This document shows, in pieces, positions 1 to 42,933 of a stretch of 64,000 nucleotides of DNA. The notes under the pieces are model-generated. The model searched no databases. It was given only the letters and a program-made list of their open reading frames with translations, and was not told the DNA's origin. The DNA is taken from the NCBI GenBank assembly GCA_033852165.1, contig JAWSUZ010000004.1:4692-68691 (forward strand). Direction: 5' to 3'. Each line of letters starts with the position of its first letter. Position 1 is the stretch's first letter. The DNA is from Agarilytica sp. (GTDB lineage: Bacteria; Pseudomonadota; Gammaproteobacteria; Pseudomonadales; Cellvibrionaceae). Both the position numbers and the translations under genes were made by a program.

Positions 1-2879
1 CCAGAACCGTCGGCGAAAGCGTAAAGGAAGTTTGTCGTCGCGCGGCCTGCTACTACATGTGCATAGTTGCTGGAGGTAAAGTCGCTACAGGGTTCCGGAG
101 TTGGTGTAGGAGTCGGAGTCGGAGTCGGAGTCGGTGTGGGAGTTGGTGTAGGAGTCGGAGTCGGTGTGGGAGTTGGTGTAGGAGTGGGTGTTCCACCGCC
201 CGCAGCATCGGTTGAACCATTCAGCGCAGAACTTTGCGCAGACTCATTTCCACTGGTATCTGTTGCCGATACGGTGAAGCTGTAAGTCGTGCTTTCCGTT
301 AACCCGCTAACAACGACTGAATTACTTGTGGAGGTTGTGTTTAACGTACCGTCCATATACAAGCTGTAAATAGAGAGGTCGATATCACTGACAACGTTCC
401 AAGTGAGAGTAATGCTTGTCTCGCTGGTATTACTGATGGCCAAACCGCTGGGTACGACAGGAGGAGTCGTATCGTTGCTGGTAAAGTCCGCACGGCGATT
501 ATTATCGAAGAAAAATTGCGTAACAAATGCCGGGTAATCAATTGTGGAATGGTTGGTGTATGCGCCGCCCGCTTCATCGTTACCTGCAGGCCATGCATGG
601 TCTAAACCTGTCACCATTATTTTCGATACGCGAACACCATTGACATCACTCCAGGTCTCTTCTGTACCGCCACCTGTTATGGGGTTTGACCCGCTGTCTT
701 TACTGACGTTATAGACATTTGCCATCGCTGCAGCGTCTAGCTCTGCATAGGCTTGACCGACCAGAAAATCCGAAGTGCCGTGAACGACTGACGTTAACTG
801 AGTGTTAAAATCGTTATCAGATGTCGAAAAGTTCAAGCAGGTATTTGCCACAGTGCTTGCGGTAGTGCCGCCAGGTACAGAACTAATTTGTCCGGAAGTC
901 GTGCCAATTGCTGGGCCTGCATTAATCCCAATACCGGCAAATATTTCAGGGGCTAAACAACCCATAACAAAGGTTTCACTGCCGCCAGAAGAAAGACCTG
1001 CAATATACACTTGGTCCGGATCAATATTGAGGCTGCTATTGGCGATTAAGCTATTAGCCAAATCAATCAAATTGTCGTCATGTCGGCTGGGGTTTGTTGA
1101 ACTGTGATTAGAGTCGTAATAATCCCAGCAAGCTGCAATCACACCACCATTAGGAGCCATTGGCGCAACCACAACCATTCCGTATTCGTCGGCTTCGTCT
1201 TCCCAGCCCCAGTTGTCTCGAACCACTTCGTTGTCTTGTGAACATCCGTGCAAGCTAATCATCAATGCGCGTTGGCCGTTGCTTGTGGCTGAGTTAGGTG
1301 TATAGATGTGAACTTCCATTCCATCTAAGTTGCCATCAGTTGTCCATTCGCCAGGGGTTGATGAACCGCCACCGGAACCACCGCCAGATCCGCCACCCGA
1401 ACCTCCGCCCACATTGGGATCAACGTCAGTCCATGAACCGTCTATTAATTCCCATAAAGTGAACGAATCGATGAAACCATACTTTTCGCCCATTGCCAGG
1501 TAGCCGTCTACGTCGAGTCGGCCCGCGGTATAGTGATCAGTTGCGGTTCCGGAAGCGCTAGGGGCGATGTATTCAAGGGCTGTTGTGGTGAAGTTAACCG
1601 TTGTAGACGCGGCAGATTCATTCTCACATTTATCCACAGATTTCGCATAAATACTGTAAGCGCTAGAAGGACTTAGGCCGGAAACTGTAATCGTATTGGT
1701 TGCAGAAAATCCTGCAGAGCTACCGTCGGTGTTATAAATGTTATAGCCTTTAAAGTCGGATTCAGAATTTACATCTGCGCCCAATATTGCGTATTTATCG
1801 TGTACATCATCAGCGCTCAAATTGGCTGGAACAGCTGGAGGCGTTGTATCGTTGGGATCTTCGCAAGCGCCGAATCCGCTTAATGTATAGTTCTCAAAAA
1901 ATGCCCAGATATATTCAGAAGCACTGGGGCCTTGGCCCTCTGCCCATAAAGGTGTGCTCGTATCGTCACCGGTCCAGTAATGGCCTTGGCCGTAGCTAGC
2001 CGAGTTACCGGCCACACCCGCGTAAAACATTGTTTTAACTAAAGGATCGCCTGCAGTATCGTTATACGTTGTGAGCGTGCAGCTAATGCCTTCGGTTGTA
2101 CAATCTTCGGTTCCATCAGAGCTGAGGTCTGCACCCCACACCGAAAGATGAGAGTCTCGAATTAATTGTCCGCCCGTAATCATCACCACGGTATCGTTAG
2201 AGGAATGCACAACCAGTGTTGGCACCGCACGCGCGTAGTTTAATTCGGCATTAATTTTATCAATATGAAATTGTAATGAATTAAATTGGTCGGCGGTGAC
2301 GGATGTTGAACCGTCGCCATAGGCTAGGGCTTCAACAGGAGCCATTGCAGCCCAATAGTCGTTGTAGGCAATGCCAGCCGCAACCGTCATGGCGCCACCG
2401 CTGGAGACACCGGTTATATAACGTCTTTCTGAATCGATGTTGTAATTGGATTCCACCTGAACGGCCATATTGTAAAGATCGTCGACCTCGCCGTTGCCAC
2501 CTTCTTGAACATGGTTTGAAAACCAGTAGCCCCAGCAATTTTCACTTCGATTTTCGGTAAAGCTAGTGACAAAAGGAAATACAACGATGACGTTATTTTG
2601 GTCTGCAACTAAATCTAAATTCCAAAGGTTACGTGCATCATCGTGATCCATCGCGCAGCCATGTAAGGCAAATATCATGGGAACCGCAGTGTTGCCATCG
2701 TACGATTGAGGTACATAAACCTTGTATTCCCGAGTGCGTGACCCGTTATAGGAATAATTCTCAACAGAACCACTACCCGTCATTAATTGTGCTGTAGCCG
2801 GTGAGGACGCAAAAACACCCAAAGTAACAGCGGTGAATAATTCTTTACGCCACTTAAACATCGATTTTAAAAACGTCAT
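1..2879 (-). CDS. phaZ: Extracellular short-chain-length PHA (PHB) depolymerase with two tandem catalytic domains; 3'-partial (runs off the window edge)
   Basis: Hand translation from ATG at 2879 is open for 959 codons to the edge. Signal peptide; CD1 with LHGC, GVSSG (2397-2411), HSSND, GHYW; FN3; SBD-like TATDHYTAGRL; Gly/Ser linker; CD2 with LHGC, GLSSG (984-998), HGTSD, DHAW; FN3; (TP)16; SBD-like SSNYAHVVAGRA. Confidence 0.92.
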   Translation of the reverse strand, partial: MTFLKSMFKWRKELFTAVTLGVFASSPATAQLMTGSGSVENYSYNGSRTREYKVYVPQSYDGNTAVPMIFALHGCAMDHDDARNLWNLDLVADQNNVIVVFPFVTSFTENRSENCWGYWFSNHVQEGGNGEVDDLYNMAVQVESNYNIDSERRYITGVSSGGAMTVAAGIAYNDYWAAMAPVEALAYGDGSTSVTADQFNSLQFHIDKINAELNYARAVPTLVVHSSNDTVVMITGGQLIRDSHLSVWGADLSSDGTEDCTTEGISCTLTTYNDTAGDPLVKTMFYAGVAGNSASYGQGHYWTGDDTSTPLWAEGQGPSASEYIWAFFENYTLSGFGACEDPNDTTPPAVPANLSADDVHDKYAILGADVNSESDFKGYNIYNTDGSSAGFSATNTITVSGLSPSSAYSIYAKSVDKCENESAASTTVNFTTTALEYIAPSASGTATDHYTAGRLDVDGYLAMGEKYGFIDSFTLWELIDGSWTDVDPNVGGGSGGGSGGGSGGGSSTPGEWTTDGNLDGMEVHIYTPNSATSNGQRALMISLHGCSQDNEVVRDNWGWEDEADEYGMVVVAPMAPNGGVIAACWDYYDSNHSSTNPSRHDDNLIDLANSLIANSSLNIDPDQVYIAGLSSGGSETFVMGCLAPEIFAGIGINAGPAIGTTSGQISSVPGGTTASTVANTCLNFSTSDNDFNTQLTSVVHGTSDFLVGQAYAELDAAAMANVYNVSKDSGSNPITGGGTEETWSDVNGVRVSKIMVTGLDHAWPAGNDEAGGAYTNHSTIDYPAFVTQFFFDNNRRADFTSNDTTPPVVPSGLAISNTSETSITLTWNVVSDIDLSIYSLYMDGTLNTTSTSNSVVVSGLTESTTYSFTVSATDTSGNESAQSSALNGSTDAAGGGTPTPTPTPTPTPTPTPTPTPTPTPTPTPTPTPEPCSDFTSSNYAHVVAGRATTNFLYAFADGS
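96..191 (-). repeat. Thr-Pro linker repeat, 16 x 6 nt, inside phaZ
   Basis: Degenerate hexamer array (ggagtc/ggtgtg/ggagtt) encoding (TP)16 on the minus strand. Confidence 0.95.
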
Positions 2880-3032
2880 ATTTAACAAGCCTCAAAGGAG
2901 AATAAAATGATTGCATGGGTAAAAGGTCAAACGCCCTCCCAGCGTATTATTTTTATTAATTATTTTTGGTGCGACAAAATGTGATTTGATATGCATAAAT
3001 CTACATAACGCTATTTAGATTAGTAGAGGATT

Positions 3033-3060
3033 TAGACCTAGGTCGTACGACTAAGGTCTA
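3033..3060. promoter_or_regulatory. 28-bp near-perfect palindrome made of two CrbR/ErdR-like boxes upstream of phaZ
   Basis: TAGAC-CTAG-GTCGT-ACGAC-TAAG-GTCTA. Each half resembles TAGAC-N4-GTCTA. About 155 bp upstream of the phaZ start. Confidence 0.6.
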
Positions 3061-3189
3061 GTGTCGAAAAGTAAATGTTGTGATACGCGAGGCGTGTTTA
3101 ATATTGATTTTGTTTGTCGGGGTTGCTGACAATACTTTTAAAGTCTAAAAAATTTAGTAATCAAAAAAAACGGCTAAAAATCAACCTTG

Positions 3190-3212
3190 GCATATCGATA
3201 GTATCGATATGC
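3190..3212. promoter_or_regulatory. Perfect 11-1-11 inverted repeat, candidate operator
   Basis: GCATATCGATA-G-TATCGATATGC in the AT-rich region upstream of phaZ. Confidence 0.45.
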
Positions 3213-3538
3213 TTGGCGAATGTTAAATCTATATATTCGATACCCTTCGAATTTGTTCGTATATACAAATGTTTTTTTATTACATGTAGGGAAAATATAA
3301 ATTTTTGGATTTTTGGGAATTTTAAAATAAATATGCTAAGGATATGGTGCACATTTTTGGCCCCTAACAGTTTATTGATAGGCTGTAGGTTTAGCAGATT
3401 AATTAAGGAGAATTTATTAATAAGTTGAATATAGGGAAGTTATTGGCAGTACTTTAAGCATGGAGCCAGGTTTAAATCTGGTACATAGGGGGATGGCCCC
3501 ATACGCAAAGTTACTTTGTACGAAATAATCCGTGTGTA

Positions 3539-4603
3539 CTATTGACCAAAGTTCGATGGGAGGTCGCGTTTGGGTTCTGTATTATCAGCATTGATTGTAC
3601 GGTTGCTCAGATACTTCGAGCCTGTATCAATTCGTTTTGCTATTGGCTTACTGGCAACGACTGCTGGATCAACAACAGTTGAGCTTAAGCTCGCTTTCCA
3701 GCCGGTAACTTGGCTTCTGCCTGCATCACTGTTTAGGTCTATCGGAAGAAGTTTGATATGGGCTTGGTTCCAACCCATCCCTACGGTTAACTCAGCGGCA
3801 TATTCTTTTCCTGCTTCGAGATCTGCCGACAAAATAGCGTAACGTTCAGACCGAGCAAGAAAGTCATAATGGCCGGGCTTCAATTTTACGGAAAAATACG
3901 CCCCGCCTTTTGTACTACCTACGTAACCCTCTTGGCTCCAAACGTCAAAGGCAATGCCGGAAATTAATTTACTCGGGCGGTAAAACCTTACAACGGCATG
4001 ATCCGAATCGGCGTTAAGCTCTTCCGTCGCATTGGTCATAATCGGGTAGGCCAAAGTACCGGGGTTGATGACGAGATTATCGTAGGCTGTGTTTTCTCTT
4101 TTTTCCGTTAGTGGCTCGACGGCACGTGTTTTCATTACCGTGGATTTACCCAAGTCTTCATCGAGAATTTCCGTTAGCCCGGTTGTTGCATAGCCAAATT
4201 TCGCGTAAACAATTTCGCCCGGCTTATTGTCGATCGCCATGTAGCCAAAACCTGCTGTGGCTTGTACGAAATGGAGCGTGTTTAAGCCTGCGTCCAGCTC
4301 TAGATAAACGTGACTGCCATTAGACAAGTCTGCAACGACGGCATCATCAACGGCTACCCACAATCCACGTGCACCACCTTGAAAATTACTACCACGAATA
4401 ACGTAAACCCCGGTTTTGTCTGCCGGTACTTCTGGTTCTTGAAAGTTTTGAACGAGTTCTGGGTCGACCTTGTATACCGTAGCCGCACAGCCTGTCATAA
4501 GCGCGCCAAATAAGGCGATAGCGATGACTCTGAGAAAAGAAAAACGGGTGAATTGTCGGAGGTATGAAGGTGATTGGCTTATTCTTGATAGCGTAATATT
4601 CAT
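3539..4603 (-). CDS. Lipoprotein with two DUF2846-like domains
   Basis: Lipobox-like LMTGC. Two repeats of the pattern V(Y/R)(V/F)(I/Y)R-x-S-(N/K)-(F/L)...; 354 aa. Confidence 0.6.
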   Translation of the reverse strand: MNITLSRISQSPSYLRQFTRFSFLRVIAIALFGALMTGCAATVYKVDPELVQNFQEPEVPADKTGVYVIRGSNFQGGARGLWVAVDDAVVADLSNGSHVYLELDAGLNTLHFVQATAGFGYMAIDNKPGEIVYAKFGYATTGLTEILDEDLGKSTVMKTRAVEPLTEKRENTAYDNLVINPGTLAYPIMTNATEELNADSDHAVVRFYRPSKLISGIAFDVWSQEGYVGSTKGGAYFSVKLKPGHYDFLARSERYAILSADLEAGKEYAAELTVGMGWNQAHIKLLPIDLNSDAGRSQVTGWKASLSSTVVDPAVVASKPIAKRIDTGSKYLSNRTINADNTEPKRDLPSNFGQ

Positions 4604-31040: not shown

Positions 31041-33407
31041 TTAATACTCATAGCCTAGAGTTAGAGTGATAGTGCGAGGATCGCCGTAGTAGCCGAGGAT
31101 TGCATCTTCGCCCGCTGTAGCTGGGAAGTTGTATCCGCCTGTACGATACTCTTCGTCAGCAAGGTTTTTGCCGCTAAGAATAGCTGTCCAGCTCTCTTCT
31201 GGAGATTTCCAAACTACGCTAGCATCGATTAGGTCATAGCTTTCCTGATCGATGATAGATTCAGTAGCTTCAAACATGCGAACATCATCACGGAATGAGT
31301 ATGCAATATTGAATTGCAAGCTGCCAGAGCTGCCAATATCGAGATTGTAAGAAGTTGCGAGTTGGAAGTTCATGTCGGGAGCGTTCTGCATGCCCCATGC
31401 TTCATAAAAAACACCATTCACAGTATTGTCGTTTGCTCGGTTTATGACGGTTAGTACTGGGTCGCCATCTCCGTTAACTGCACCGGTGGGAACTGTTTCG
31501 TCAACTGTGTCGAACTCGGCATCTAGCAGGCCTAGAGCCATGTTGATTGTCCAACTTTCAGTCGCTTGGAATGTAGCTTCAAGTTCAAGACCTTGGATTG
31601 TTGCTTCACCAGCGTTCACTACTGTCGACGAGAAGAATGATGGAGCGGGAGCCGGTGATTGAACAGTAACTTGCATGTCCGTGTAATCGGTATAGAAGAG
31701 TCCCAAGTTCAAGCGTAAGCGATTATCAAAGAGTTGAGTTTTTAGGCCTGTTTCATAAGTGACTACAGTTTCTGGGTCGAAACCTTCGACTGCATTTGGC
31801 TCAACAACTGCATCGGTACGCATATCAAATCCGCCAGACTTAAAGCCCTCAGAGTAAGATACGTATACTAAAGTCTCATCATTCAACTTGTAATCAAGTT
31901 TAATGGTGGGAGAAAACTCATTCCATGAATCATTCATGTCATTTTTATCAAAGTCTGTACGTGTAGCTACAAGCGTATCGTACTGGGCTAAGCCATGTGT
32001 TAAAGCTGAACCTTGGCTAGTTGTGCCTGGTATGGAGTTAGCTGTAACAATAAAGAATCGTTGAGCGAGTGCAGATTTTTCATCTCTTGTGTAGCGACCG
32101 CCGGCAGTTAGGGTTAATGAATCTGTGAAACTCCAGTTAACATTAACGTAAGCCCCGGTACTTTCGGTGTCAACTTCGCCGTTAACGCCGTTGCTGAATG
32201 CGCTGCCATCAAGAATTGCTCCTGAGAAATGACCAAATAGGGCATCAAATGCGCCAGTTGCAGTGCCGTCGTAGTAGAATAGGCCACCAACGATAGCAAG
32301 GCTATCCATTGTGTAGTTAATCTGTACTTCAGCTGTAGTTTGCTCGTCATTGTAAAATGCAGGAATGTCAAAAGAATCTAGTGGGGTACCGTCGAAGTCG
32401 ATAAACGTTTTAGTTGAGCCTGAGCGGTTAGCCAACACAAACTTTGATGAAAGTTCGTCGGTAATATCATATTGAACAGTTAAAGATACGCCTCGAGACA
32501 GAACTTCTTGCTCTTCAGTCATTCCACACTCTGAATCATAAACAGATTCGCGAGGTCCAAAAAATTCACCGTTAGGTCCGGCAACAGTGTTGTCCGCGAA
32601 ACGCGAACCACAACGGCTGTTTGAAGTATCTTCAAGAGCGTCAGCGGCTACGCGAATAAATAAAGAGTCGGTCGGAGAGTATTCAACAGAAGCTCGTGCC
32701 GCTTTAACGTCTTTATTGTAGTTTTCTTCTGTACGGTTGAAAGTTTGGTCAGCAGGGTCGTAGTCTTTATATTGAGTGCCGAAGCCGTCTCTTTTCAAGA
32801 TGCCAACTGCAAAGCCAAAATACAGCTCATCTTCGATAAGAGGTATTTGGTTAGCGACTTTAATGTCGTTTTGACCTGCAGTACCAACAGCAACTTTAAC
32901 GCTACCGCTGTGCTCGCCAGTCATTTTCTTAGTGATGTACTTAATCGCGCCACCAATGGTGTTTTTACCGTAAAGAGTACCTTGTGGTCCACGAAGGATT
33001 TCTAAACGCTCTAGATCCATAAGATCCATAACCGCGCCTTGAGGGCGAGCGATGTAAACGTCATCCAGATAAACACCGACGCCTGGCTCGAAACCCCAAA
33101 GAGGATCTTGTTGGCCGATACCACGGATGAACGCAGTAAGAGTAGAGTTAGTACCACGGCTAGCGCGCAATTGTGCGTTAGGAGTACTTTTTTCGATATC
33201 GATGATAGTTGATGCGCCAGCAGCTTCTAATTGAGCTGGAGAGAACGCAGTAATAGCAATAGGAACTTCTTGTAGGTTTTGCTCACGCTTCTGAGCAGTA
33301 ACAATAACTTCTTCTAGCTGAGGAGCTGCGAAAGTTGGTACCGAGATCGGTAACGCAATCGCCACTGCAACCGCAAGCGGATTTAAAAGTAATTTAGTTT
33401 TTTTCAT
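31041..33407 (-). CDS. TonB-dependent receptor
   Basis: Signal peptide, LEEVIVTAQKRE, plug motifs FIRGIGQ and LEILRGPQGTLYGKN, C-terminal LGYEY. Confidence 0.95.
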   Translation of the reverse strand: MKKTKLLLNPLAVAVAIALPISVPTFAAPQLEEVIVTAQKREQNLQEVPIAITAFSPAQLEAAGASTIIDIEKSTPNAQLRASRGTNSTLTAFIRGIGQQDPLWGFEPGVGVYLDDVYIARPQGAVMDLMDLERLEILRGPQGTLYGKNTIGGAIKYITKKMTGEHSGSVKVAVGTAGQNDIKVANQIPLIEDELYFGFAVGILKRDGFGTQYKDYDPADQTFNRTEENYNKDVKAARASVEYSPTDSLFIRVAADALEDTSNSRCGSRFADNTVAGPNGEFFGPRESVYDSECGMTEEQEVLSRGVSLTVQYDITDELSSKFVLANRSGSTKTFIDFDGTPLDSFDIPAFYNDEQTTAEVQINYTMDSLAIVGGLFYYDGTATGAFDALFGHFSGAILDGSAFSNGVNGEVDTESTGAYVNVNWSFTDSLTLTAGGRYTRDEKSALAQRFFIVTANSIPGTTSQGSALTHGLAQYDTLVATRTDFDKNDMNDSWNEFSPTIKLDYKLNDETLVYVSYSEGFKSGGFDMRTDAVVEPNAVEGFDPETVVTYETGLKTQLFDNRLRLNLGLFYTDYTDMQVTVQSPAPAPSFFSSTVVNAGEATIQGLELEATFQATESWTINMALGLLDAEFDTVDETVPTGAVNGDGDPVLTVINRANDNTVNGVFYEAWGMQNAPDMNFQLATSYNLDIGSSGSLQFNIAYSFRDDVRMFEATESIIDQESYDLIDASVVWKSPEESWTAILSGKNLADEEYRTGGYNFPATAGEDAILGYYGDPRTITLTLGYEY

Positions 33408-33715
33408 GATGCACACCTGTGTGGTTATCTATTAGTTGATGTTTTATTTTTTTGATGATGTGTTTATCCGGAGCATTCTAATGCTATTCCACTTCTTGCA
33501 GCAAGCTTAAATATCGTGTCTTTTTTAATTTACTGTTTACTAATAAATGATGCTCACGACGCACCTGCAGCAAATCTGATCATTAATTAACCTTATTTTT
33601 AATTTTCTACTGTTTTCTAAAATTCACTTCACTCAAGGTTGTAGCGGAACTACACTCATCACTCGTTAACACTATCTTTAACAATAAAAGTAAATAGATT
33701 TTTAAAAGGCCAATT

Positions 33716-35026
33716 ATGATTAGTGTGTTGGGATTAATAACGGCGCTTGTGTTGCTCGTAATTTTAACGATCCGCGGAATGAATTTGATGATTGCGGCGC
33801 CATTCTGTGCGATTCTTGTTGCATTGACCGGGGGTTTGCCAATTATTCCTGATGTTACGCAGACTCAAAGCTTTATTACTGTGTATATGGATGGCTTTGC
33901 TGGGTTCCTTGGCGCATGGTTCTTTATGTTCTTGCTGGGTTCTTTGTTCGGTAAGTTTATGGAAGAATCGGGCGCTGCCGATAAAATCGCGTTAACAATT
34001 GTTGATTGCCTGGGAATGAAAAACGCCGTTGCGGCAATTATTATTTCTTGCGCGATTATGACTTATGGCGGTGTTAGCTTATTTGTTGTGGCGTTTTCCG
34101 TTTACCCAATGGCTGTCAGCTTATTTAAAAAGGCGGACTTACCACGCCGGTTTATTCCTGCTGCGATGGCTTTTGGTTCTGTAACTTTTACGATGACTTC
34201 AGCGGGATCGCCAGAAATTCAAAACTGGATTCCGATTAAGTATCTGGGTACTACCCCGTATGCGGCATGGGAAGTTAGCTTGTTTGTCGCGATCTGTATG
34301 GCGTCTTTTGGCTTTTGGTGGCTAAGTCGTATGGTTAAAAGTGCTCTTGCTAAGGGGGAGACGTTTTCTGCGAGAAAGGATGACCCAGAGCCAAAGGACT
34401 TGGATTCCCTTCCTCCTTTTTGGGCTTCTATTGTTCCGATCATCACGGTATTGATTATCACGTTTATCTTTCATGAGGAATACGCGCAATATTCGCTGGT
34501 TATGTCTTTGGCCTCCGGCTGCCTGGCGGCTTGGTTTGTGACCCATCGCAGTATGGAGGGCTTGGATCGGGTTGTGGCACAGGGCACAACTGGAGCCGTT
34601 ATTGCGATTGCGAATACTTCGGCGGTTGTTGGTTTTGGGTCGGTAGCGAAAGTCTCACCGGCATTTGATATAGCGGTTGATGCTATTACTAGCTTGCCGG
34701 GCAACGAGCTGATTGGTGCGGCGATTGCGGTAACGTCTATTGCTGCTATGACGGGGTCAGCATCCGGTGGTCAGAGTATTGCGTTACCGGTATTGGCGCC
34801 ACACTATTTAGACGCCGGTGTTGATCCGGAGGCATTGCACCGAGTTGTGGCGATATCGTCCGGGGCTTTGGATAGTTTGCCTCATAACGGCTATGTGGTG
34901 ACTACAATTCGAGCAATTTGTCATGAGACACACAAGGCTGCATATGGCCCCATGGCCGCATTGACGGTGGTTATTCCTATGATGGGAACCATTTTAGCTC
35001 TTGCCTGCTTCATTCTATTTGACTAA
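33716..35026 (+). CDS. GntP-family permease, probable D-3-hydroxybutyrate permease
   Basis: LLGSLFGKFMEESGAA, LTYGGVSLFVV, AGSPEIQN, GSASGG, DSLPHNG; context. Confidence 0.88.
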   Translation: MISVLGLITALVLLVILTIRGMNLMIAAPFCAILVALTGGLPIIPDVTQTQSFITVYMDGFAGFLGAWFFMFLLGSLFGKFMEESGAADKIALTIVDCLGMKNAVAAIIISCAIMTYGGVSLFVVAFSVYPMAVSLFKKADLPRRFIPAAMAFGSVTFTMTSAGSPEIQNWIPIKYLGTTPYAAWEVSLFVAICMASFGFWWLSRMVKSALAKGETFSARKDDPEPKDLDSLPPFWASIVPIITVLIITFIFHEEYAQYSLVMSLASGCLAAWFVTHRSMEGLDRVVAQGTTGAVIAIANTSAVVGFGSVAKVSPAFDIAVDAITSLPGNELIGAAIAVTSIAAMTGSASGGQSIALPVLAPHYLDAGVDPEALHRVVAISSGALDSLPHNGYVVTTIRAICHETHKAAYGPMAALTVVIPMMGTILALACFILFD

Positions 35027-35240
35027 TTAGTTCCGTCACTAAGTGGACGGCCAATGCGAGCGCATTGAAAGCGCTATCTATGCACCGCTGGATATTGTTG
35101 CTTGGAATGACTAACGTGGTCATAACTGGCGGTGCAAATCCATTATGTTCAATCAGCTCTTGCTATACCCTTGTGGTATCGGCGGGTACCAGCTAACTGT
35201 ACATGAGAGTTTTGTTCGGTTAAGGTTTTCGGTAACTACG

Positions 35241-35279
35241 AAGCCGGTATTCAATTGCTTTGAATGCTGGCTTTTTTTT
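35241..35279 (+). terminator. Strong intrinsic terminator
   Basis: 14-bp stem AAGCCGGTATTCAA / TTGAATGCTGGCTT followed by a T run. Confidence 0.8.
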
Positions 35280-35363
35280 GTGCGCTAGAATTAAAGAAAT
35301 ACCGTTCCATGCGAGCAGGGCTTTAATTTTTCGTAGAGAGCTGTAATACGGAGTAACTAGTTT

Positions 35364-37412
35364 ATGGTGCTAAATAGTAAGGGCTATAGGCTGTCGTTAT
35401 TCGTCCTGTTTTCCGCGGTGATTTTTACGTCATGTGCTGTCTCACCTGTGAAGTCTAGCAACGGGCAAGCTCAACACCGTACGGCCTTTATGTTGGGGGG
35501 CGTCTCAAAGCTCTACTATGATGGAGAGTTTAATGACCTAGCCTATGGTGGCTTGGGTCTTGATGCTATTCGTAATGGTGAGGCGCCTGTTGTTTCCGAC
35601 CCGCTACGTCCTTCGATCTCTGATTTACGCCGTTTGGCGATCTATCACAATATTCGTTCATTGTCTGCGATGTCGGATAATGCCGGTTATGGCTCTCTTT
35701 ACGCCAATTTTGATCTAGCTGCTAGCCCGGTTAGCGGTTACGAATTTATTGCTCCTTTACTCTTTGATGATGGCCAAGTTGCCTCTGTTTTCATGCTTCA
35801 GGTACCCGATAATTTTGATTGGGACCATCCTTGCCTTATTTCGGCGGCGTCCTCCGCATCACGAGGAATATACGGAGCTATAGGGGTTGTAGGGCTTTGG
35901 GGCTTGGATAAAGGCTGTGCGGTGGTGCATTCTGACAAGGGCACTGGTACAGGGTTTTACTGGTTAAGTGATGATCAAACAGTTGATGTAAGTGGGCAGA
36001 TTAATAAGCCCAATGAAAATTCTCATTTTATTGTCGATAATGTCAAACAGTTTGCTCAGGCTTACCCAAACAGGGTCGCAACAAAGCATGCGCATAGCCA
36101 AAGAAATGTGGGGCGACACTGGGGAGGGGCAGTTCTATCGTCAATAGAGTACGCATTCGAGTTGCTCAATTCTGAATTTGGCGGACAGAAAAGGTTAACG
36201 CCGGAAAATACATTGGTGATTGGGGCGGGGATCTCGAACGGAGGAGGGGCTGTAGTTGTTGCTGCCGAACAGGATAAATCGCAATTTTTCGACGGGATAG
36301 TTTTGGCCGCGCCGAATATTCCGGTACCGGCTGGATATGAGTATCAATATAAAAGTGGCGAAGCAAGGAGTAGACGAGCTGCTCAGGAGACTCGTTCCCA
36401 CAGGGTGACCGTACTTGTCGAAGTGGGTTTTAATCTGGCGCTTTACTTGCCTTGCGCTGCTTTGTTTAGTGGAGAGCCCACCCATCCTGAGGGTCTGAAC
36501 GCTCATTGGCAGGCATTACTTGAAACGAGATGCAATAAACTCAAAGCTGCCGGTTTATTGTCTGGAAAGTCCTTTCGGGAGCAGAGCTTTGAATCTCTCC
36601 AGGTTTTAATACGTAGGGGGTATCCTGAAAGCGCAAATACCATGGCAACAACATTTGCACGCAATTTGTTATGGAATTCTTTAATGCTGAGCTACACCAG
36701 TGATTTGGGAGGGTATGGGGTTGGCGATCATTTATGTGATTACAGCTATGCCTATGCAAACTCCGAGGGGGAGCCTATCGTCACTCCTGATGAGGTAAAG
36801 GCGCTAGTTTTTGGTCGAACCCGGGGCAGCTTGCCAGCGTTGGGTATTCAGATTATGAACGACGCCAGTGCAGATGGCCCACGTGATCTTATGCATTCAG
36901 TTGATGCGGATGGTGTATTGGATTTGGGCTTTGATAATGTCATGTGCATGGAAAAACATTTGTTCTCTAAGCGTGTGCAAGACGGGTTAACGGCCATTCA
37001 AGCCTCAGGTAATTTGCAGGGGCTTCCCGCAATTATTGTGCATGGCGAAGCCGACAATATCATTCAGGTTAGAAATACGTCGCGAGCCTATGCCGTATTA
37101 AACTCTGAAGTGGAAGATAATTCTTCTTTGGTTTATTACGAGGTTAAAAATGCGCAGCATATTGACCGGCTGATTGATTACCCTCCATATAAAACGCAAT
37201 ACATCCCCTTGCAGTTCTATTTCGAAGAAGCGCTCGACTCTATGTATGAACACCTAACCGAAGGTACAGCTATTCCCGCGAGCCGTGAAATTTTAACGGT
37301 TCCGGCTACCGAGAAGGAAGAAAAGTTGACACGTAAAAATTTACCCTCTATTACTTCTGGTAATACGAACCCTATCGAAATTAAAAGTGGAGTTTTGGTT
37401 TTTGCCAATTAA
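35364..37412 (+). CDS. D-(-)-3-hydroxybutyrate oligomer hydrolase, probable lipoprotein
   Basis: Lipobox-like FTSC; RRLAIYHN, SSASRGIYGAIG, SDKGTG, ATKHAHSQ, ISNGGG, IIVHGEAD, QHID. Confidence 0.9.
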   Translation: MVLNSKGYRLSLFVLFSAVIFTSCAVSPVKSSNGQAQHRTAFMLGGVSKLYYDGEFNDLAYGGLGLDAIRNGEAPVVSDPLRPSISDLRRLAIYHNIRSLSAMSDNAGYGSLYANFDLAASPVSGYEFIAPLLFDDGQVASVFMLQVPDNFDWDHPCLISAASSASRGIYGAIGVVGLWGLDKGCAVVHSDKGTGTGFYWLSDDQTVDVSGQINKPNENSHFIVDNVKQFAQAYPNRVATKHAHSQRNVGRHWGGAVLSSIEYAFELLNSEFGGQKRLTPENTLVIGAGISNGGGAVVVAAEQDKSQFFDGIVLAAPNIPVPAGYEYQYKSGEARSRRAAQETRSHRVTVLVEVGFNLALYLPCAALFSGEPTHPEGLNAHWQALLETRCNKLKAAGLLSGKSFREQSFESLQVLIRRGYPESANTMATTFARNLLWNSLMLSYTSDLGGYGVGDHLCDYSYAYANSEGEPIVTPDEVKALVFGRTRGSLPALGIQIMNDASADGPRDLMHSVDADGVLDLGFDNVMCMEKHLFSKRVQDGLTAIQASGNLQGLPAIIVHGEADNIIQVRNTSRAYAVLNSEVEDNSSLVYYEVKNAQHIDRLIDYPPYKTQYIPLQFYFEEALDSMYEHLTEGTAIPASREILTVPATEKEEKLTRKNLPSITSGNTNPIEIKSGVLVFAN

Positions 37413-37415
37413 CGT

Positions 37416-40400
37416 ATGCTAAGCCAAGGTTATATTGCTCTCTGGTCGATTGGGTATCTGTGTATACTTTTTGTAATTGCGTTTTGGGGGGATAGTCTTC
37501 GGGAGCAGGCGATTCGCCGGTATAAGCCTATAATTATTGGTTTGGCGGTTACCGTTTATTGCAGTGCATGGAGCTTTCATGGTGTAGCTGCTCAGGCTGT
37601 TAGTAAAGGGTGGTATTTTCCTCCTACCTTTCTGGGGGCCATTCTATTGCTAGTCTTTTTCTGTCCCTTAATAAAAAAACTAATCGCGGAGAGTAAGCGA
37701 GCGAATATCACGTCCATTGCAGATTACCTGTCAGTGAGCTACGGAGGTTCCCGTACTCTCGGTGTTTTAATTACACTGGTTTCTATAGTGGTTTTGGTTC
37801 CTTATCTTGCTTTGCAATTGAAAGCGATTACTCAGAATTATCATTTGCTGGCAAGAGCTGAATTACCGTTTGATCAAGCTTTCACAGAAACCACCCACAT
37901 GGGTACGGCTTTTGTTGTTGCTCTCTTGTTGGGGGCTTTTGCCATGATTTTTGGCTCTCGCAACCAAGACGTTAGGGAGCATCATAATGGTTTAATGTTG
38001 GCTATTGCATTTGAATCGATAGTTAAGCTGGTGGCTTTTGTTGTATTGGCCTTGTTTGTATCGATGGTTATGTATGACGGCCTGGAAGATATTTTTTTCC
38101 AGGTGGCGCAAAATGATGTTTTGATGAAAGAACTCGTTGAGAGGCGTGAAGGTGATGGCGGTTACCTCACCGCCATGATATTGGGTTGTATTGCTATGGT
38201 GTGCTTGCCCAGACAGTTTCATGTGCTGGTTGTCGAGAGTGAAAATCCAAGTGATATTAATACCGTCCGCTGGCTTTTCCCTGTGTACCTGCTCGTTTTT
38301 GGTATGTGTGTTTTACCTGTAGCGTATGCGGGCATGCTGCTTTTTCATGACTTGGGAATTAGTTCTGACCAATATGTTTTAGGGATTCCACTAATTGCTG
38401 GCCGAGTTGACTTGGCTCTTCTAACCTATTTGGGTGGTTTTTCAGCGGCCAGTAGCATGGTGATTTTAGCTTGCGTTGCGATGTCGACAATGGCGTCTAA
38501 TGAGCTGGTTATCCCTTTTTTATCTCGCTTCAATTTAATTGATTTACAGAATAAAAATAGAGCGCATCGCACAATTAGAACGGTTCGTCGTTACGTTATT
38601 TTCACCTTGCTTTTGTTAGCGTATGGGTATTATCGATTACTTGGTAATCAGGCAAGTTTAGGTGCTATTGGCTTTTTGTCATTTTCTTTGGCCGCTCAAT
38701 TTTTCCCATGTTTGTTTTTCAGCTTGATATTAAAGTCAGATCGAAGGAGTGAATTGGCCGTTTCTGCAATTGTTGGTATTGCCGTGGGGTTAGGGGTTTG
38801 GTGTTACACCTTATTTCTTCCCGCGTTAGTGGATGCTGGGTTTCTTTCTCAGCAGTTTTTAGATGAAGGACCGTTTGGGGTTTCATGGTTGAGACCAACG
38901 GCGTTATTTGGCTTTGAGATTTTTAGTGATTTATCACATGGTGTGTTCTGGAGTTTATGGGCGAATGTAGTCAGTTTTATTTGCTTGTCGAAAAGTCCCT
39001 TAGCCTACTTTCGGGATGCGACGTTTAGCGAGGGGCGTGCAGCCACAATGCTTGAGTTAAAGTTATTATTGACGCGCTTTTTAGGCGTTGACCAGACTGA
39101 GTTAGCGTTGAAGGAATACCCTAAGTTGGCGGCTGCGCGCGGCTACGCAGATAGCGGCGATGTCAGCGTGGTCGAAAATATTCTTTCCGCTGTGGTGGGT
39201 TCAATATCAGCGCGAAATATTATTGAAACATCTTTTACGGGTGAAGCTGAAAATGAAAAGTTGCTGGATAAGGCCGCGCAAATATTTCAGTTTGGACGAG
39301 AATTGCTGCAGGAAAGTATCGATAATATTAGTCAGGGCATTAGCGTTGTTGATTCACAGTTAAAAATGGTTGCGTGGAATCGTGGTTATTTAGATATCTT
39401 TGAGTACCCGAAAGGCATGATGCACGTGGGCTGTAATGTGGCGGACTTACTTCGTTATAACGCAATATTAAATGGCCTGGAAGGGGGAGAGGTTCAGCAC
39501 TTTATTGATAAACGCTTGAAGTTAATGGCTTCAGGCAGTGCCTATATTCATATCTACACACATTACACTGGACGGGTATTGGAAATCCAAGGGGCTCCTA
39601 TGGGAGAGGGAGGTTTTGTAACAACCTTTACCGATATTAGTAACTATCAAGAAACGGTTAGCACGTTAGAGGAAACGAGGGCAACCCTAGAGTCTCGCGT
39701 GAAGGAACGGACAGAAGAACTGCAGTTAGCAAATCGAAAATTACGTGATGCAAACCATAAAAAAACACATTTTTTGGCTGCTGCTGGGCACGATTTGATT
39801 CAACCTCTAAATGCCGCAAAGTTGTTTGCCACAGCACTGACCCATAAAGTAAAGGACCCTGAAACCACAAAGCTTCTTCACAATTTAGATCACTCTCTTC
39901 ATTCTGCAGATGCGATTATTAGTGAGCTCCTAGCGATTGCGAAACTGGATTCCGGGGAAATGCAGGTCAACGCGAAAACATTTTGTATTGGGGATCTACT
40001 GCGTTCGCTGCATAAGGAATTTTCTATCATTGCGCAAAAGAAGAATATTGAACTGCGTTTTTGCTATAGCTCTTTGGCAGTGACAACGGATGAGCAGTTA
40101 TTGAAACGAATTTTGCAAAACCTTTTATCAAATGCTATTCGCTATACCAATACAGGTAAAGTGATCATTGGTTGTCGGCGGTCGAAAACCACCAGTTGCA
40201 TTGAGGTGTGGGACCAAGGAAAAGGCATTCCCGAAAAAGAGGAAGAGAATATATTCAAAGAGTTTCATCGAATAGATAAAAACGAGCAAGACGGTGGCTT
40301 AGGTCTGGGCTTAGCAACTGTGCAGCGTTTGTGTCAGTTACTCGAAGTGAAAATCAAAGTGGAGTCTAAGGTTGGCCAGGGCAGTGTGTTTCGTATCGTG

Positions 40401-40862
40401 CTGCCGCGCACAGAAAAACGATATGTGTCTGCGTTAGATGGCGATGAGCAGGCTTCTCCTCGTGAATCTGTTTTGTCGGGGATGAGGGTTCTGTGTATCG
40501 ATAATGAAAGTACTATTCTTGATGGTATGAAGGCTGTGTTGGAGACTTGGGGTTGTGTTTTTTATGGGGTGACGGAGTGGTCGGATATTTTACCGTGGGA
40601 GCCGGATGCTTTACTTGTGGATTTTCATTTAAACGACGGTATTACCGGTATTGAATTAGCTGAGCGATTTCACGCTAAATATGGGGATGTTAAGCCGATC
40701 GTGGTGATTTCTGCAGATCAGAATAATGATGTTAGAGAGCAGGCAAAGTCGCGGGCTTATTTCTTTTTAAGAAAGCCGCTCAAGGCGGCTTCTCTTTGGT
40801 CTGTGTTGGCGCGTATCAATGATATGAAAAGCCTTGAGGGAACCGTTGCTCCTCGTCAATAA
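37416..40862 (+). CDS. crbS: SLC5(SSS)-STAC-PAS-histidine kinase-receiver hybrid sensor (CrbS/MxtR type)
   Basis: VYCSAWSF, SIADYLS..YG, LPRQFHV; STAC-like LLTRFLG..SAVVGSISAR; PAS; AGHDLIQPLNAA; C-terminal receiver. Confidence 0.9.
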   Translation: MLSQGYIALWSIGYLCILFVIAFWGDSLREQAIRRYKPIIIGLAVTVYCSAWSFHGVAAQAVSKGWYFPPTFLGAILLLVFFCPLIKKLIAESKRANITSIADYLSVSYGGSRTLGVLITLVSIVVLVPYLALQLKAITQNYHLLARAELPFDQAFTETTHMGTAFVVALLLGAFAMIFGSRNQDVREHHNGLMLAIAFESIVKLVAFVVLALFVSMVMYDGLEDIFFQVAQNDVLMKELVERREGDGGYLTAMILGCIAMVCLPRQFHVLVVESENPSDINTVRWLFPVYLLVFGMCVLPVAYAGMLLFHDLGISSDQYVLGIPLIAGRVDLALLTYLGGFSAASSMVILACVAMSTMASNELVIPFLSRFNLIDLQNKNRAHRTIRTVRRYVIFTLLLLAYGYYRLLGNQASLGAIGFLSFSLAAQFFPCLFFSLILKSDRRSELAVSAIVGIAVGLGVWCYTLFLPALVDAGFLSQQFLDEGPFGVSWLRPTALFGFEIFSDLSHGVFWSLWANVVSFICLSKSPLAYFRDATFSEGRAATMLELKLLLTRFLGVDQTELALKEYPKLAAARGYADSGDVSVVENILSAVVGSISARNIIETSFTGEAENEKLLDKAAQIFQFGRELLQESIDNISQGISVVDSQLKMVAWNRGYLDIFEYPKGMMHVGCNVADLLRYNAILNGLEGGEVQHFIDKRLKLMASGSAYIHIYTHYTGRVLEIQGAPMGEGGFVTTFTDISNYQETVSTLEETRATLESRVKERTEELQLANRKLRDANHKKTHFLAAAGHDLIQPLNAAKLFATALTHKVKDPETTKLLHNLDHSLHSADAIISELLAIAKLDSGEMQVNAKTFCIGDLLRSLHKEFSIIAQKKNIELRFCYSSLAVTTDEQLLKRILQNLLSNAIRYTNTGKVIIGCRRSKTTSCIEVWDQGKGIPEKEEENIFKEFHRIDKNEQDGGLGLGLATVQRLCQLLEVKIKVESKVGQGSVFRIVLPRTEKRYVSALDGDEQASPRESVLSGMRVLCIDNESTILDGMKAVLETWGCVFYGVTEWSDILPWEPDALLVDFHLNDGITGIELAERFHAKYGDVKPIVVISADQNNDVREQAKSRAYFFLRKPLKAASLWSVLARINDMKSLEGTVAPRQ

Positions 40863-40974
40863 GTGGCAAAGGTTAATTTAACTGATGCTTTTCTTCAAAA
40901 ATCCTTGGCTTTCAAAAAACTTTAGGGTGTCTTTAAAAATTGTGATTTTTTGTGAGGGCAAGGAAATACCACGC

Positions 40975-41135
40975 GGACACTAGCATGGATGCCAGTGCCA
41001 GGTCGCAGCATTAGCGCAGGAAGCGCGTAAGTAGAATAACGCAGGAGCAGTTATCGAGGAAGCCCGGTCCGAGAGTCTCAGTGTACATGGTGTACACCGG
41101 AAATCGAGTACGGAGCCGATGCCGTCATCGCTAAA
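40975..41135. repeat. REP-like hairpin cluster between the convergent kinase and regulator genes
   Basis: ACTAGCATGGATGCCAGT, AACGCAGGAGCAGTT (reverse complement of 18917-18931), GTGTACATGGTGTACAC. Confidence 0.7.
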
Positions 41136-41157
41136 AAGTATTTTTTAGAAATGCCCT

Positions 41158-41802
41158 TTAGTCGTTAGCAGGACTTTCAAATTTTTGTGAAAGTAAAATA
41201 ACTTCAGTGCGTTTTCTCAAGCCCAATTTCCGTAAAATCGCGGTTACATGGGATTTGACTGTCGTTTCAGTAATGTCGAGTTCAAAGGCAATTTGTTTGT
41301 TTAGCATGCCTTGGCTGAGCATTGAAAAAACACGAAATTGGTGCGGCGTCAGTGAGGCAACGCGACGAGCTATGTCTTTCAGTTCCTCATCTTCTTCGCT
41401 TATTGTTTTATCAAACCAGGGTTTGCCTTGAAGAAGGTCGCCAATCACTTTTTCCAGTTCGTTTGCATCTAAAGATTTAGAAAGAAAGCCGATTGCGCCG
41501 AGCTGCTCTGCATGGCTGATCACTTTTTGACTATTGTCCCCAGAAATCATTGCAACAGGGACTTCGGGAAAGTAGCCGCGCAAATTGACTAAACCGGCAA
41601 ATCCGTTGGTCCCGGGCATATGCAGGTCGAGAAGTACAAGGTCGGGATCAACATCTGACTCCAAATAGCTGTGAACTTCTTTAATGGTGTTGCATGAAAT
41701 ACATTCAACTTTTTGGGGTAAATTACTAAAATTATTAATCGTTTGTATAAGTGCGCTACGAAACAGCGGGTGATCGTCCGCGATGATAATTTTTATTGTC
41801 AT
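41158..41802 (-). CDS. LuxR/NarL-family response regulator (CrbR/ErdR type)
   Basis: IIADDHPLFRSAL, LLDLHMPG..GF, LTPHQFRV...LNKQIAFEL..TVKSHVTAILRKL. Confidence 0.9.
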   Translation of the reverse strand: MTIKIIIADDHPLFRSALIQTINNFSNLPQKVECISCNTIKEVHSYLESDVDPDLVLLDLHMPGTNGFAGLVNLRGYFPEVPVAMISGDNSQKVISHAEQLGAIGFLSKSLDANELEKVIGDLLQGKPWFDKTISEEDEELKDIARRVASLTPHQFRVFSMLSQGMLNKQIAFELDITETTVKSHVTAILRKLGLRKRTEVILLSQKFESPAND

Positions 41803-42921: not shown

Positions 42922-42933
42922 AACATGACCGGG

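What the first reader, a model, noticed from the sequence alone, without database searches (positions are those of the whole stretch)
1..2879. Hidden giant PHB depolymerase with two complete catalytic domains
Seen: the ORF track misses this gene because it has no stop in the window. Hand translation gives one open frame of >=959 codons: signal peptide, CD1 (LHGC; GVSSG; HSSND; GHYW), FN3, substrate-binding-domain-like motif, GGGSGGGSGGGSGGGSS linker, CD2 (LHGC; GLSSG; HGTSD; DHAW), FN3, (TP)16, second SBD-like motif. There is no second signal peptide at the junction. Established: extracellular scl-PHA depolymerases are normally SP-one catalytic domain-linker-SBD; tandem SBDs are known. Inference: two divergent type-1 catalytic modules, each with its own linker and binding domain, are joined in one chain. 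This could give endo/exo synergy or different PHA copolymer preferences. I know of no characterised enzyme with this layout.
Basis: partly seen in the sequence, partly recalled or inferred. Interest (0 to 1): 0.88.

Follow-up and report, generated by a model that had tools for sequence, protein, structure and literature searches.

The report
Two-headed secreted PHB bioplastic depolymerase
A deep-sea plastic-film bacterium encodes one secreted 104-kDa protein with two different, intact PHB (bioplastic) depolymerase catalytic domains; it is real, one of ten such genes in this genome, belongs to a family shared by marine PHA-degrading bacteria, and I found no paper describing this layout.

Summary
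On the minus strand an open frame runs from the ATG at window 2879 off the left edge. The contig continues, and the stop lies 29 codons beyond, giving 988 aa (104 kDa).

- Each catalytic module alone passes NCBIfam's curated type-1 scl-PHA depolymerase cut-off (185 and 187 bits against 150).
- The oxyanion-motif His and Cys and the Ser-Asp-His triad are invariant in both modules in 39 of 39 tandem proteins.
- dN/dS is 0.02-0.04 for both modules.

The gene is not an assembly artefact: orthologs on 0.96-1.5 Mb contigs have the same fusion. It is not unique either. This genome has 10 tandem genes, six of them in one array. The family occurs in Agarilytica, Alteromonadaceae and QZLD01-order MAGs from PHA plastispheres, and other tandem layouts exist elsewhere.

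The genome matches MAG AMN13_PHB_gam1 of Omura et al. 2024, which lists 28 'exPhaZ' genes but does not describe tandem domains. I found no paper that does.

The internal 'SBD-like' segment is not demonstrably an SBD. The C-terminal one is. This scan already reported an ortholog on other DNA (e1-5198983).

Verdict: an uncharacterised architectural variant of a known enzyme kind.

The parts
2787..2879 (-). Start codon (ATG 2877-2879) and Sec-type signal peptide, residues 4-34 (basic n-region, hydrophobic core, PATAQ end)
   Evidence: Read from the sequence. The mature N-terminus (L/I)MTGSG is conserved in the orthologs. The AF2 model has low confidence for residues 1-36. No signal-peptide predictor was available.
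2890..2893 (-). Shine-Dalgarno GAGG, 10 nt upstream of the ATG
   Evidence: Read from the sequence.
1854..2783 (-). CD1, residues 36-345: type-1 scl-PHA depolymerase catalytic domain with H76/C78, S162 (window 2403-2405), D232 and H303
   Evidence: NF050058 185 bits against a cut-off of 150, model positions 4-276 of 276. PDB 8DAJ, E 3.9e-34, with the HGC, GxSxG and GH motifs aligned. Residues invariant in 39 of 39 proteins.
1566..1853 (-). FN3a, residues 346-441: fibronectin type III linker domain
   Evidence: Pfam fn3 at 19.4 bits (below the cut-off of 25), E 0.0012. The model shows a beta-sandwich of strands with pLDDT about 80-90.
1410..1565 (-).
   Evidence: No Pfam or NCBIfam hit. Not significantly similar to the SBD. 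It recurs after CD1-FN3 in all relatives and again before the SBD in the orthologs. dN/dS 0.03-0.08.
1359..1409 (-). Gly/Ser linker GGGSGGGSGGGSGGGSS, residues 494-510: the junction between the two halves
   Evidence: Disordered in the model. No stop or frameshift. Orthologs have an equivalent G/S/T linker in frame.
471..1343 (-). CD2, residues 516-806: type-1 scl-PHA depolymerase catalytic domain with H547/C549, S633 (window 990-992), D707 and H764
   Evidence: NF050058 187.4 bits and TIGR01840 188 bits. Sits in the clade that holds the canonical Paucimonas and Janthinobacterium enzymes. Residues invariant in 39 of 39 proteins.
195..470 (-). FN3b, residues 807-898
   Evidence: Pfam fn3 37 bits, E 3.6e-9. 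pLDDT about 90-95.
96..191 (-). (TP)16 linker, residues 900-931
   Evidence: Exactly 16 repeats. Disordered in the model.
1..89 (-). [quoted passage not shown] The rest, and the stop codon, lie 87-90 nt beyond the window's left edge (L009:4604-4690).
   Evidence: It is 66-71% identical to the C-terminal 58 aa of canonical CD-FN3-SBD depolymerases of Paucimonas lemoignei and Janthinobacterium. Terminal Cys pair C934/C990 conserved.
2880..3538 (.). AT-rich (33-38% GC) 659-bp upstream intergenic region containing the 28-bp palindrome at 3033-3060
   Evidence: The palindrome half-sites are found upstream of this gene only, among 24 PhaZ-like genes. The promoter scan was not above chance.

Best explanation
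This is a genuine single gene for a secreted protein of about 100 kDa. Its layout is: signal peptide, CD1, FN3, small module X, Gly/Ser linker, CD2, FN3, (TP)16, C-terminal PHB-binding domain.

Both heads are intact alpha/beta-hydrolase PHB depolymerase domains of the type-1 order (oxyanion-hole motif HGC, then lipase-box Ser, then Asp, then His), but they belong to two deeply separated subfamilies. CD1 resembles the Lihuaxuella thermophila enzyme. CD2 resembles the classical Gram-negative enzymes.

Proposed mechanism. The C-terminal SBD anchors the chain on the polyester surface. Two flexible linkers let both heads work on neighbouring chains, which raises local catalytic density and probably combines two specificities. 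The released 3HB oligomers would be taken up and split by the receptor, permease, 3HB-oligomer hydrolase and dehydrogenase encoded 30-40 kb away in the same window.

Shown: the architecture, the intact catalytic residues, purifying selection on both heads, conservation of the fusion, and the PHA-linked ecology.
Inferred: that both heads are active, that they share one SBD in cis, and that they are functionally complementary.
For: - One open frame.
- Each CD passes the curated cut-off on its own.
- The HGC-motif His and Cys and the Ser-Asp-His triad are invariant in both CDs in 27 sequences and in 39 of 39.
- dN/dS among orthologs is 0.023-0.032 for CD1 and 0.034-0.040 for CD2, and dN to our gene is equal for both (about 0.16).
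- CD1 aligns to the solved PHB depolymerase 8DAJ (E 3.9e-34). The fold match to 9BYU/8DAJ has target TM-score 0.85-0.86.
- The model has confident domains, disordered linkers and pTM 0.41, i.e. beads on a string.
- The same fusion occurs in three congeners on 0.96-1.5 Mb contigs.
- 10 tandem paralogs in this genome.
- N-terminal and C-terminal domains form two separate clades with broadly matching sub-clades, which fits one old fusion followed by duplication.
- SBDb is 66-71% identical to the SBDs of canonical enzymes.
- Single-CD1 relatives keep a true SBD besides X.
- The window also holds a 3HB-oligomer hydrolase (498 bits), GntP permease, TonB receptor, SDR and PhaC.
- The genome's statistics match MAG AMN13_PHB_gam1, which had 359x coverage on a P3HB film and 28 exPhaZ.
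Against: - There is no biochemical, transcript or proteome evidence.
A search for independently assembled fragments spanning the junction found none.
- NF050058 is only a 'hypothetical equivalog' model, and the fold is shared with CE1 feruloyl and acetyl-xylan esterases, so PHA specificity of each head is inferred.
- Complementarity of the heads rests only on their divergence and co-retention.
- The signal peptide was judged by eye.
Confidence: 0.7

Rival explanations
1. Precursor that is cut. The Gly/Ser linker is cleaved after secretion, releasing two independent enzymes of about 50 kDa: CD1-FN3-X and CD2-FN3-SBD. The fusion would then serve only co-expression and co-secretion.
For: The two halves are almost equal in size (49.5 and 50.0 kDa). 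They are separated by a disordered 17-residue G/S linker. Single-CD1 proteins exist as free-standing genes.
Against: The free-standing CD1-FN3-X proteins nearly always also carry a true C-terminal SBD. A released CD1-FN3-X half would therefore lack the binding domain that its stand-alone relatives keep. Linkers of this kind are ordinary flexible tethers in secreted multidomain enzymes (general knowledge). There is no cleavage motif and no data.
Confidence: 0.15
2. One head is a pseudo-enzyme. Only one domain hydrolyses, and the other serves as an extra polymer-binding or chain-feeding module.
For: Catalytically dead PHB-depolymerase-like domains are reported elsewhere in this scan (notes listed, unchecked). 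CD1 and CD2 are very divergent (29% identity).
Against: The HGC-motif His and Cys and the Ser-Asp-His triad are invariant in both heads in 39 of 39 tandem proteins. dN/dS is equally low in both. A binding-only domain would be free to lose its triad.
Confidence: 0.08
3. Not a PHA enzyme. The heads are CE1-type carbohydrate esterases (feruloyl or acetyl-xylan esterase) of a polysaccharide degrader, misnamed by homology.
For: Pfam PF10503 and the fold are shared with feruloyl and acetyl-xylan esterases. Cellvibrionaceae are polysaccharide degraders (Omura et al. text).
Against: PHB depolymerase structures are clearly the best fold and sequence matches (E 1e-22 against 1e-13, target TM-score 0.85 against 0.73-0.79). 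The tail is a PHB-depolymerase-type SBD and there is no CBM. 3HB-oligomer hydrolase and PhaC genes lie in the same window. The MAG bloomed on PHB films and not on other plastics. The large-genome congener G084 has no match.
Confidence: 0.05
4. Assembly chimera or two adjacent genes merged at the repetitive linker.
For: This is a short-read MAG with about 24 paralogous genes and repeated linker DNA. In the first tree the CD1 and CD2 placements looked incongruent.
Against: No exact 31-mer of the gene occurs elsewhere in the genome, and there are no orphan half-genes at contig ends. Orthologs with the same CD1 (78-80% identity) and the same CD2 (80%) in one frame lie on contigs of 0.96-1.5 Mb in three other MAGs. 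The incongruence vanished once the orthologs were added.
Confidence: 0.02

Closest known systems
Canonical extracellular scl-PHA depolymerases with a type-1 catalytic domain (for example the Paucimonas lemoignei enzyme WP_165973762.1; layout signal peptide, CD, Fn3 or Thr-rich linker, SBD, as summarised in PMC11893044)
   Same: CD2 sits in the same clade at about 40% identity. It has the Fn3 linker, a Thr/Pro-rich linker and a C-terminal SBD that is 66% identical, and the same order of oxyanion motif, Ser, Asp and His.
   Different: Canonical enzymes have one catalytic domain. This protein adds a complete second head (CD1-FN3-X) of another subfamily in front of the canonical unit.
Lihuaxuella thermophila PHB depolymerase (PDB 8DAJ / 9BYU)
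   Same: It is the best solved relative of CD1 by sequence (E 3.9e-34, residues 53-334), and the best fold match of the model (target TM-score 0.85-0.86). The HGC, GxSxG and GH motifs align with the catalytic residues given for that enzyme in PMC11893044.
   Different: That enzyme is a single 300-aa domain. Here the homologous domain is the N-terminal head of a multidomain chain.
PHB depolymerases with tandem substrate-binding domains (Pseudomonas stutzeri; Ohura et al. 1999, cited in PMC11893044)
   Same: Module duplication within a PHB depolymerase, with flexible linkers.
   Different: There the binding domain is doubled. Here the catalytic domain is doubled.
Multi-catalytic-domain polysaccharide degraders of marine bacteria (for example the two-domain alginate lyase AlyC8 of Vibrio sp. 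C42, PMC9781882, seen; multi-domain glycanases of Cellvibrionaceae, from my own knowledge)
   Same: Works like these: two catalytic modules for one insoluble or polymeric substrate, joined by low-complexity linkers in one secreted chain.
   Different: Unrelated folds and substrates. This is an analogy only, not membership.
The 'exPhaZ' gene sets of Agarilytica, Colwellia and QZLD01 MAGs in Omura et al. 2024 (PMC10817984)
   Same: Almost certainly the same genome (AMN13_PHB_gam1: 5,420,529 bp, 125 scaffolds, 44.7% GC, against 5,420,404 b, 125 contigs, 44.7% here). The paper reports 28 exPhaZ in it.
   Different: The paper's text and its 45 held supplements contain no mention of 'catalytic domain', 'tandem' or 'two catalytic'. 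The tandem-head architecture is not described there.

Membership tests
Extracellular scl-PHA depolymerase, catalytic domain type 1 (NCBIfam NF050058 / TIGR01840 / Pfam PF10503) | Profile score above the curated cut-off for each catalytic module taken alone | tested here: met
   CD1 scores 185.0 bits and CD2 187.4 bits against a cut-off of 150. TIGR01840 gives 137.9 and 188 bits against 107.85.
Extracellular scl-PHA depolymerase, catalytic domain type 1 (NCBIfam NF050058 / TIGR01840 / Pfam PF10503) | Type-1 order: oxyanion-hole motif (HGC) N-terminal to the lipase box GxSxG, then Asp, then His | tested here: met
   CD1: H76/C78, S162, D232, H303. CD2: H547/C549, S633, D707, H764. CD1 aligns motif for motif with 8DAJ.
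Extracellular scl-PHA depolymerase, catalytic domain type 1 (NCBIfam NF050058 / TIGR01840 / Pfam PF10503) | N-terminal secretion signal | tested here: inconclusive
   A typical n-h-c region is read by eye at residues 4-34, with a conserved mature N-terminus in the orthologs. No predictor was available.
Extracellular scl-PHA depolymerase, catalytic domain type 1 (NCBIfam NF050058 / TIGR01840 / Pfam PF10503) | Linker domain (Fn3, Thr-rich or cadherin-like) between the CD and the SBD | tested here: met
   FN3b scores 37 bits, followed by (TP)16. FN3a is weaker at 19 bits.
Extracellular scl-PHA depolymerase, catalytic domain type 1 (NCBIfam NF050058 / TIGR01840 / Pfam PF10503) | C-terminal substrate-binding domain | tested here: met
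   Residues 934-991 are 66-71% identical to the C-termini of canonical Paucimonas and Janthinobacterium enzymes. No Pfam model hit this domain. Binding itself was not tested.
Extracellular scl-PHA depolymerase, catalytic domain type 1 (NCBIfam NF050058 / TIGR01840 / Pfam PF10503) | One catalytic domain per chain (canonical four-part layout, PMC11893044) | tested here: not met
   There are two complete catalytic domains in one frame. This is the point of difference, so I file it as an architectural variant.
Extracellular scl-PHA depolymerase, catalytic domain type 1 (NCBIfam NF050058 / TIGR01840 / Pfam PF10503) | Hydrolysis of denatured PHB to 3HB monomers and oligomers | not testable with these tools
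   Indirect only: the PHB-film bloom of the MAG and the 3HB-oligomer hydrolase locus in the window.
PHB-depolymerase substrate-binding domain (for the internal module X, residues 442-493) | Detectable homology to the SBD profile | tested here: not met
   hhalign of a 54-sequence X profile against an 81-sequence SBD profile gives probability 0.75% and E 0.075. The predicted secondary structure differs after the first strand and helix.
CE1 carbohydrate esterases (feruloyl / acetyl-xylan esterase) | Best sequence or fold match to CE1 esterases, and association with carbohydrate-binding modules | tested here: not met
   CE1 structures rank below the PHB depolymerase (E 1e-13 against 1e-22). No CBM was detected.

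The most novel reading that the evidence does not exclude
The two heads are functionally complementary, for example endo against exo, crystalline against amorphous regions, or 3HB against co-monomer linkages. Tethered to one shared binding domain, they would give intramolecular synergy. On this reading the tandem-head family, expanded to 10 genes here and shared across MAGs labelled Agarilytica, Alteromonadaceae and QZLD01 (possibly by horizontal transfer), is a hallmark adaptation of marine and deep-sea PHA specialists, and it helps explain why these taxa dominate PHA plastispheres.
Probability: 0.3. Interest if true: 0.72.

Novelty: new variant of a known kind. Interest (0 to 1): 0.55.

Why it matters
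PHB/PHA is a leading marine-degradable plastic, and its breakdown rate in the sea depends on secreted depolymerases. The only layout described in the reviews I read is one catalytic domain plus a binding domain.

A conserved, strongly selected family with two different catalytic heads is concentrated in the bacteria that bloom on PHA films on the deep-sea floor. That points to an enzyme design that has not been studied. It offers a directly testable question (does tethering two heads give synergy on a solid polyester?) and ready-made scaffolds for engineering better polyester-degrading enzymes.

It also means that gene counts such as '28 exPhaZ' understate the number of catalytic units. I count about 34 in this genome.

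Tried and rejected
1. Mosaic or recombinant origin. The first tree put CD1 among single-domain proteins and CD2 among tandem C-domains. After adding the three orthologs, the two trees agreed. I withdrew the idea. The single-CD1 proteins nested beside this lineage look like products of CD2 loss.

2. Chimeric assembly. Rejected on three grounds: the k-mer test, the absence of orphan halves and the orthologs on large contigs.

3. Independent fragments spanning the junction. The search for homologous proteins on residues 400-640 gave no near-identical hit, so the test was uninformative.

5. Internal module X as an SBD. The profile comparison was not significant.

6. Promoter and terminator scan. 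Not above the shuffled expectation.

7. Upstream palindrome as a shared regulon signal of the PhaZ paralogs. The half-sites occur upstream of this gene only.

8. Exact look-up of this protein in the 15-billion-protein collection. Absent.

9. Six literature searches for tandem or dual catalytic-domain PHB depolymerases. No description was found. The library lacks most subscription-journal papers, so absence is not proof.
Full report
OBSERVATION.

With open ends allowed, the minus strand of window 3-2888 is one frame of 962 codons without a stop. The window is G000:C98:4692-68691. I fetched the contig's left part (L009), and the frame ends 29 codons beyond the window edge: L009:4604-7579, 991 codons from a TTG. 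The ATG at window 2879 has GAGG 10 nt upstream and is the likely start. That gives 988 aa, a 104-kDa precursor, about 100.6 kDa mature, and pI 4.05.

WHAT THE PARTS ARE.

- Scanned separately, residues 36-350 score 185 bits and residues 516-806 score 187 bits on NCBIfam NF050058. This is the model for the extracellular type-1 catalytic domain of short-chain-length PHA depolymerases, with a cut-off of 150. Both stretches cover almost the whole 276-position model.
- The two heads are only 29% identical to each other over the 148 residues that align.
- Pfam finds Esterase_PHB twice and fn3 twice.
- CD1's best solved relative is the Lihuaxuella thermophila PHB depolymerase 8DAJ (E 3.9e-34), with the HGC, GxSxG and GH motifs aligned.
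- An AlphaFold2 model built on a 27-sequence family alignment has confident domains, disordered linkers (1-36, 494-510, 898-933) and pTM 0.41, i.e. beads on a string. Its best fold matches are 9BYU and 8DAJ (target TM-score 0.85-0.86, E 1e-22), ahead of CE1 feruloyl and acetyl-xylan esterases (E 1e-13).
- The C-terminal 58 residues are 66-71% identical to the C-termini of canonical CD-FN3-SBD depolymerases of Paucimonas lemoignei and Janthinobacterium. This is a true PHB-depolymerase binding domain.
- The internal 'SBD-like' segment (module X, 442-493) is a conserved module with no Pfam or NCBIfam match. It has no significant profile similarity to the SBD (hhalign probability 0.75%). I treat it as a module of unknown function.

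IS THE FUSION REAL?

Three other lines settle the question.

1. No 31-mer of the gene occurs elsewhere in the genome, and no orphan half-genes lie at contig ends.
2. Three other genomes of the same genus carry an ortholog. These are the MAGs Agarilytica sp. PHBVgamm1, PHBVgamm3 and PHBVgamm4, with contigs of 0.96-1.5 Mb. Each ortholog has the same CD1 (78-80% identity) and the same CD2 (80%) in one uninterrupted frame of 1048-1067 aa.
3. The same layout is found in at least 27 database clusters.

ARE BOTH HEADS LIKELY ACTIVE?

In an alignment of 39 tandem proteins, the His and Cys of the oxyanion-hole motif HGC and the Ser, Asp and His of the triad are invariant in both heads. Among the three orthologs, dN/dS is 0.023-0.032 for CD1 and 0.034-0.040 for CD2. 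dN between our gene and the orthologs is the same for both heads, about 0.16. Both heads are therefore under equally strong purifying selection and have evolved together.

FAMILY AND HISTORY.

This genome has 10 tandem genes. Six form a head-to-tail array on C97:934-22676. The others are on C9, C15, C43 and C98. There are also about 14 single-head relatives, which makes about 34 catalytic domains in all.

In a tree of 134 domains, all N-terminal heads form one clade and all C-terminal heads form another, with broadly matching sub-clades. This fits one old fusion followed by duplication. An apparent mosaic placement of our gene disappeared when the orthologs were added. Single-CD1 proteins (CD1-FN3-X-SBD) nest beside our lineage, which suggests secondary loss of CD2.

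Those single-CD1 proteins keep a true SBD in addition to X. This suggests that X does not replace an SBD, and that in the tandem proteins the single C-terminal SBD serves both heads.

Within 151 genomes sampled from the family, one-frame tandem matches occur only in genus g1. They are absent from its 7.1-Mb member G084. Named records, however, show the same family on large contigs in three other groups:
- an Alteromonadaceae MAG (803-kb contig);
- the MAGs that Omura et al. assign to order QZLD01 (58-291-kb contigs);
- a Microflora Danica gammaproteobacterial MAG.

It also occurs on short contigs binned as Colwellia, where mis-binning cannot be excluded.

Among 50%-identity representatives of 1.8 billion proteins, further tandem layouts exist: CD2 then CD1 (P0142), CD1-SBD-CD2 (P0143), CD2-X-CD2 (P0146), and distant CD1-like then CD2 (P0187, P0201, P0271, P0043, P0044). 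Each shows two NF050058 stretches. Tandem heads are therefore rare, roughly ten among about 800 strong hits, but they recur.

CONTEXT.

The genome's size, contig number and GC content are 5,420,404 b, 125 contigs and 44.7%. These match MAG AMN13_PHB_gam1 of Omura et al. 2024 (5,420,529 bp, 125 scaffolds, 44.7%). That MAG was assembled from a P3HB film at an abyssal site, where it reached 359x coverage, and it is listed with 28 'exPhaZ'. The paper notes that Agarilytica, Colwellia and QZLD01 each encode more than 10 secretable PHA depolymerases. Neither its text nor its held supplements mention tandem catalytic domains.

The same window holds a TonB-dependent receptor, a GntP permease, a 3HB-oligomer hydrolase (PF10605, 498 bits), a hybrid sensor kinase, LuxR and LysR regulators, an SDR and a PhaC. 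This supports PHB as the physiological substrate.

MECHANISM (inferred).

Secretion follows the signal peptide. The C-terminal SBD adsorbs to the polyester surface. The Gly/Ser and (TP)16 linkers and the two FN3 spacers let a Lihuaxuella-type head and a classical head attack the same patch. Oligomers are then imported and hydrolysed by the downstream locus.

Rivals and my estimates of their likelihood:
- post-secretory cleavage into two enzymes (0.15);
- one dead head (0.08);
- a carbohydrate esterase (0.05);
- an assembly artefact (0.02).

COMPARISON AND NOVELTY.

A 2025 review describes the usual e-PHAscl depolymerase as signal peptide, one catalytic domain, linker and SBD, and lists tandem SBDs but no tandem CDs. 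Six literature searches found no description of a two-CD PHB depolymerase. The library lacks most subscription-journal papers.

This scan already reported an ortholog on other DNA with the same conclusion (e1-5198983, a 1059-aa protein, the length of L011).

The gene is public and annotated generically. It is one member of a sizeable family. Multi-catalytic chains are familiar from polysaccharide degraders (for example PMC9781882).

I therefore rate it a new, uncharacterised architectural variant of a known enzyme kind. It is of real interest for polyester biodegradation, but it is not categorically new.

Noticed in passing
G000:C97:934-22676 (outside the window); also C9:844-3651, C15:41136-44351, C43:9327-12248: There is a head-to-tail array of six tandem-head PHB depolymerase genes on one strand, plus three more elsewhere. 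With about 14 single-head relatives, the genome has roughly 34 PHB-depolymerase catalytic domains.
   Followed up: partly
window 31041-46263: PHB-product utilisation cluster: TonB-dependent receptor, GntP permease, 3HB-oligomer hydrolase (PF10605, 498 bits), hybrid sensor kinase with PAS_7, LuxR-type response regulator, LysR regulator, SDR (bdhA-like) and a PhaC synthase.
   Followed up: partly
window 3033-3060: A 28-bp palindrome (two TAGAC-N4-GTC-type units) lies about 155 bp upstream of the gene. Its half-sites occur 51 times in the genome but upstream of none of the other 23 PhaZ-like genes. It is therefore not a shared signal of the paralog family.
   Followed up: partly
window 1410-1565; L010-L012 (a second copy before the SBD): Module X is a conserved module of about 55 aa (T-x-x-H-Y-x-A-G-R-L ... 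W-x-D-x-D-P-N) with no Pfam or NCBIfam family. It always follows CD1-FN3, and in the orthologs a second copy sits just before the C-terminal SBD. Function unknown; possibly an accessory binding module.
   Followed up: partly
G000:C77:74858-76687, C77:89465-91339, C116:3274-5109; P0029-P0033: Single-head proteins (CD1-FN3-X-SBD) nest next to this gene's tandem lineage in the CD1 tree (SH-aLRT 95). This suggests secondary loss of CD2 rather than an ancestral single state.
   Followed up: partly
P0142, P0143, P0146, P0187, P0201, P0271, P0043, P0044: Other tandem-head layouts occur in unrelated database proteins: reversed order (CD2 then CD1), CD1-SBD-CD2, two CD2-type heads, and distant CD1-like then CD2. 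Each has two NF050058 stretches. The organisms were not identified.
   Followed up: partly
L014, L016, L020, L041 (Colwellia MAG); L018 (Alteromonadaceae MAG); L024, L025, L031, L032, L042 (MAGs assigned to QZLD01 by Omura et al.): The same tandem family (54-63% identity on the large contigs) occurs in MAGs of other gammaproteobacterial groups taken from PHA plastispheres. This hints at horizontal spread among PHA specialists. The Colwellia contigs are short (2-20 kb), so mis-binning is possible.
   Followed up: partly
G084 (same genus, 7.1 Mb, 4 contigs): The largest genome of the genus has no match to this protein at E <= 1e-30. The PHB depolymerase expansion therefore marks only part of the genus.
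   Followed up: no
window 3539-4603 (-): The upstream neighbour on the same strand is a 354-aa protein with a weak DUF2846 match (42 bits) and a hydrophobic N-terminus. A 659-bp AT-rich spacer separates it from the depolymerase gene.
   Followed up: no
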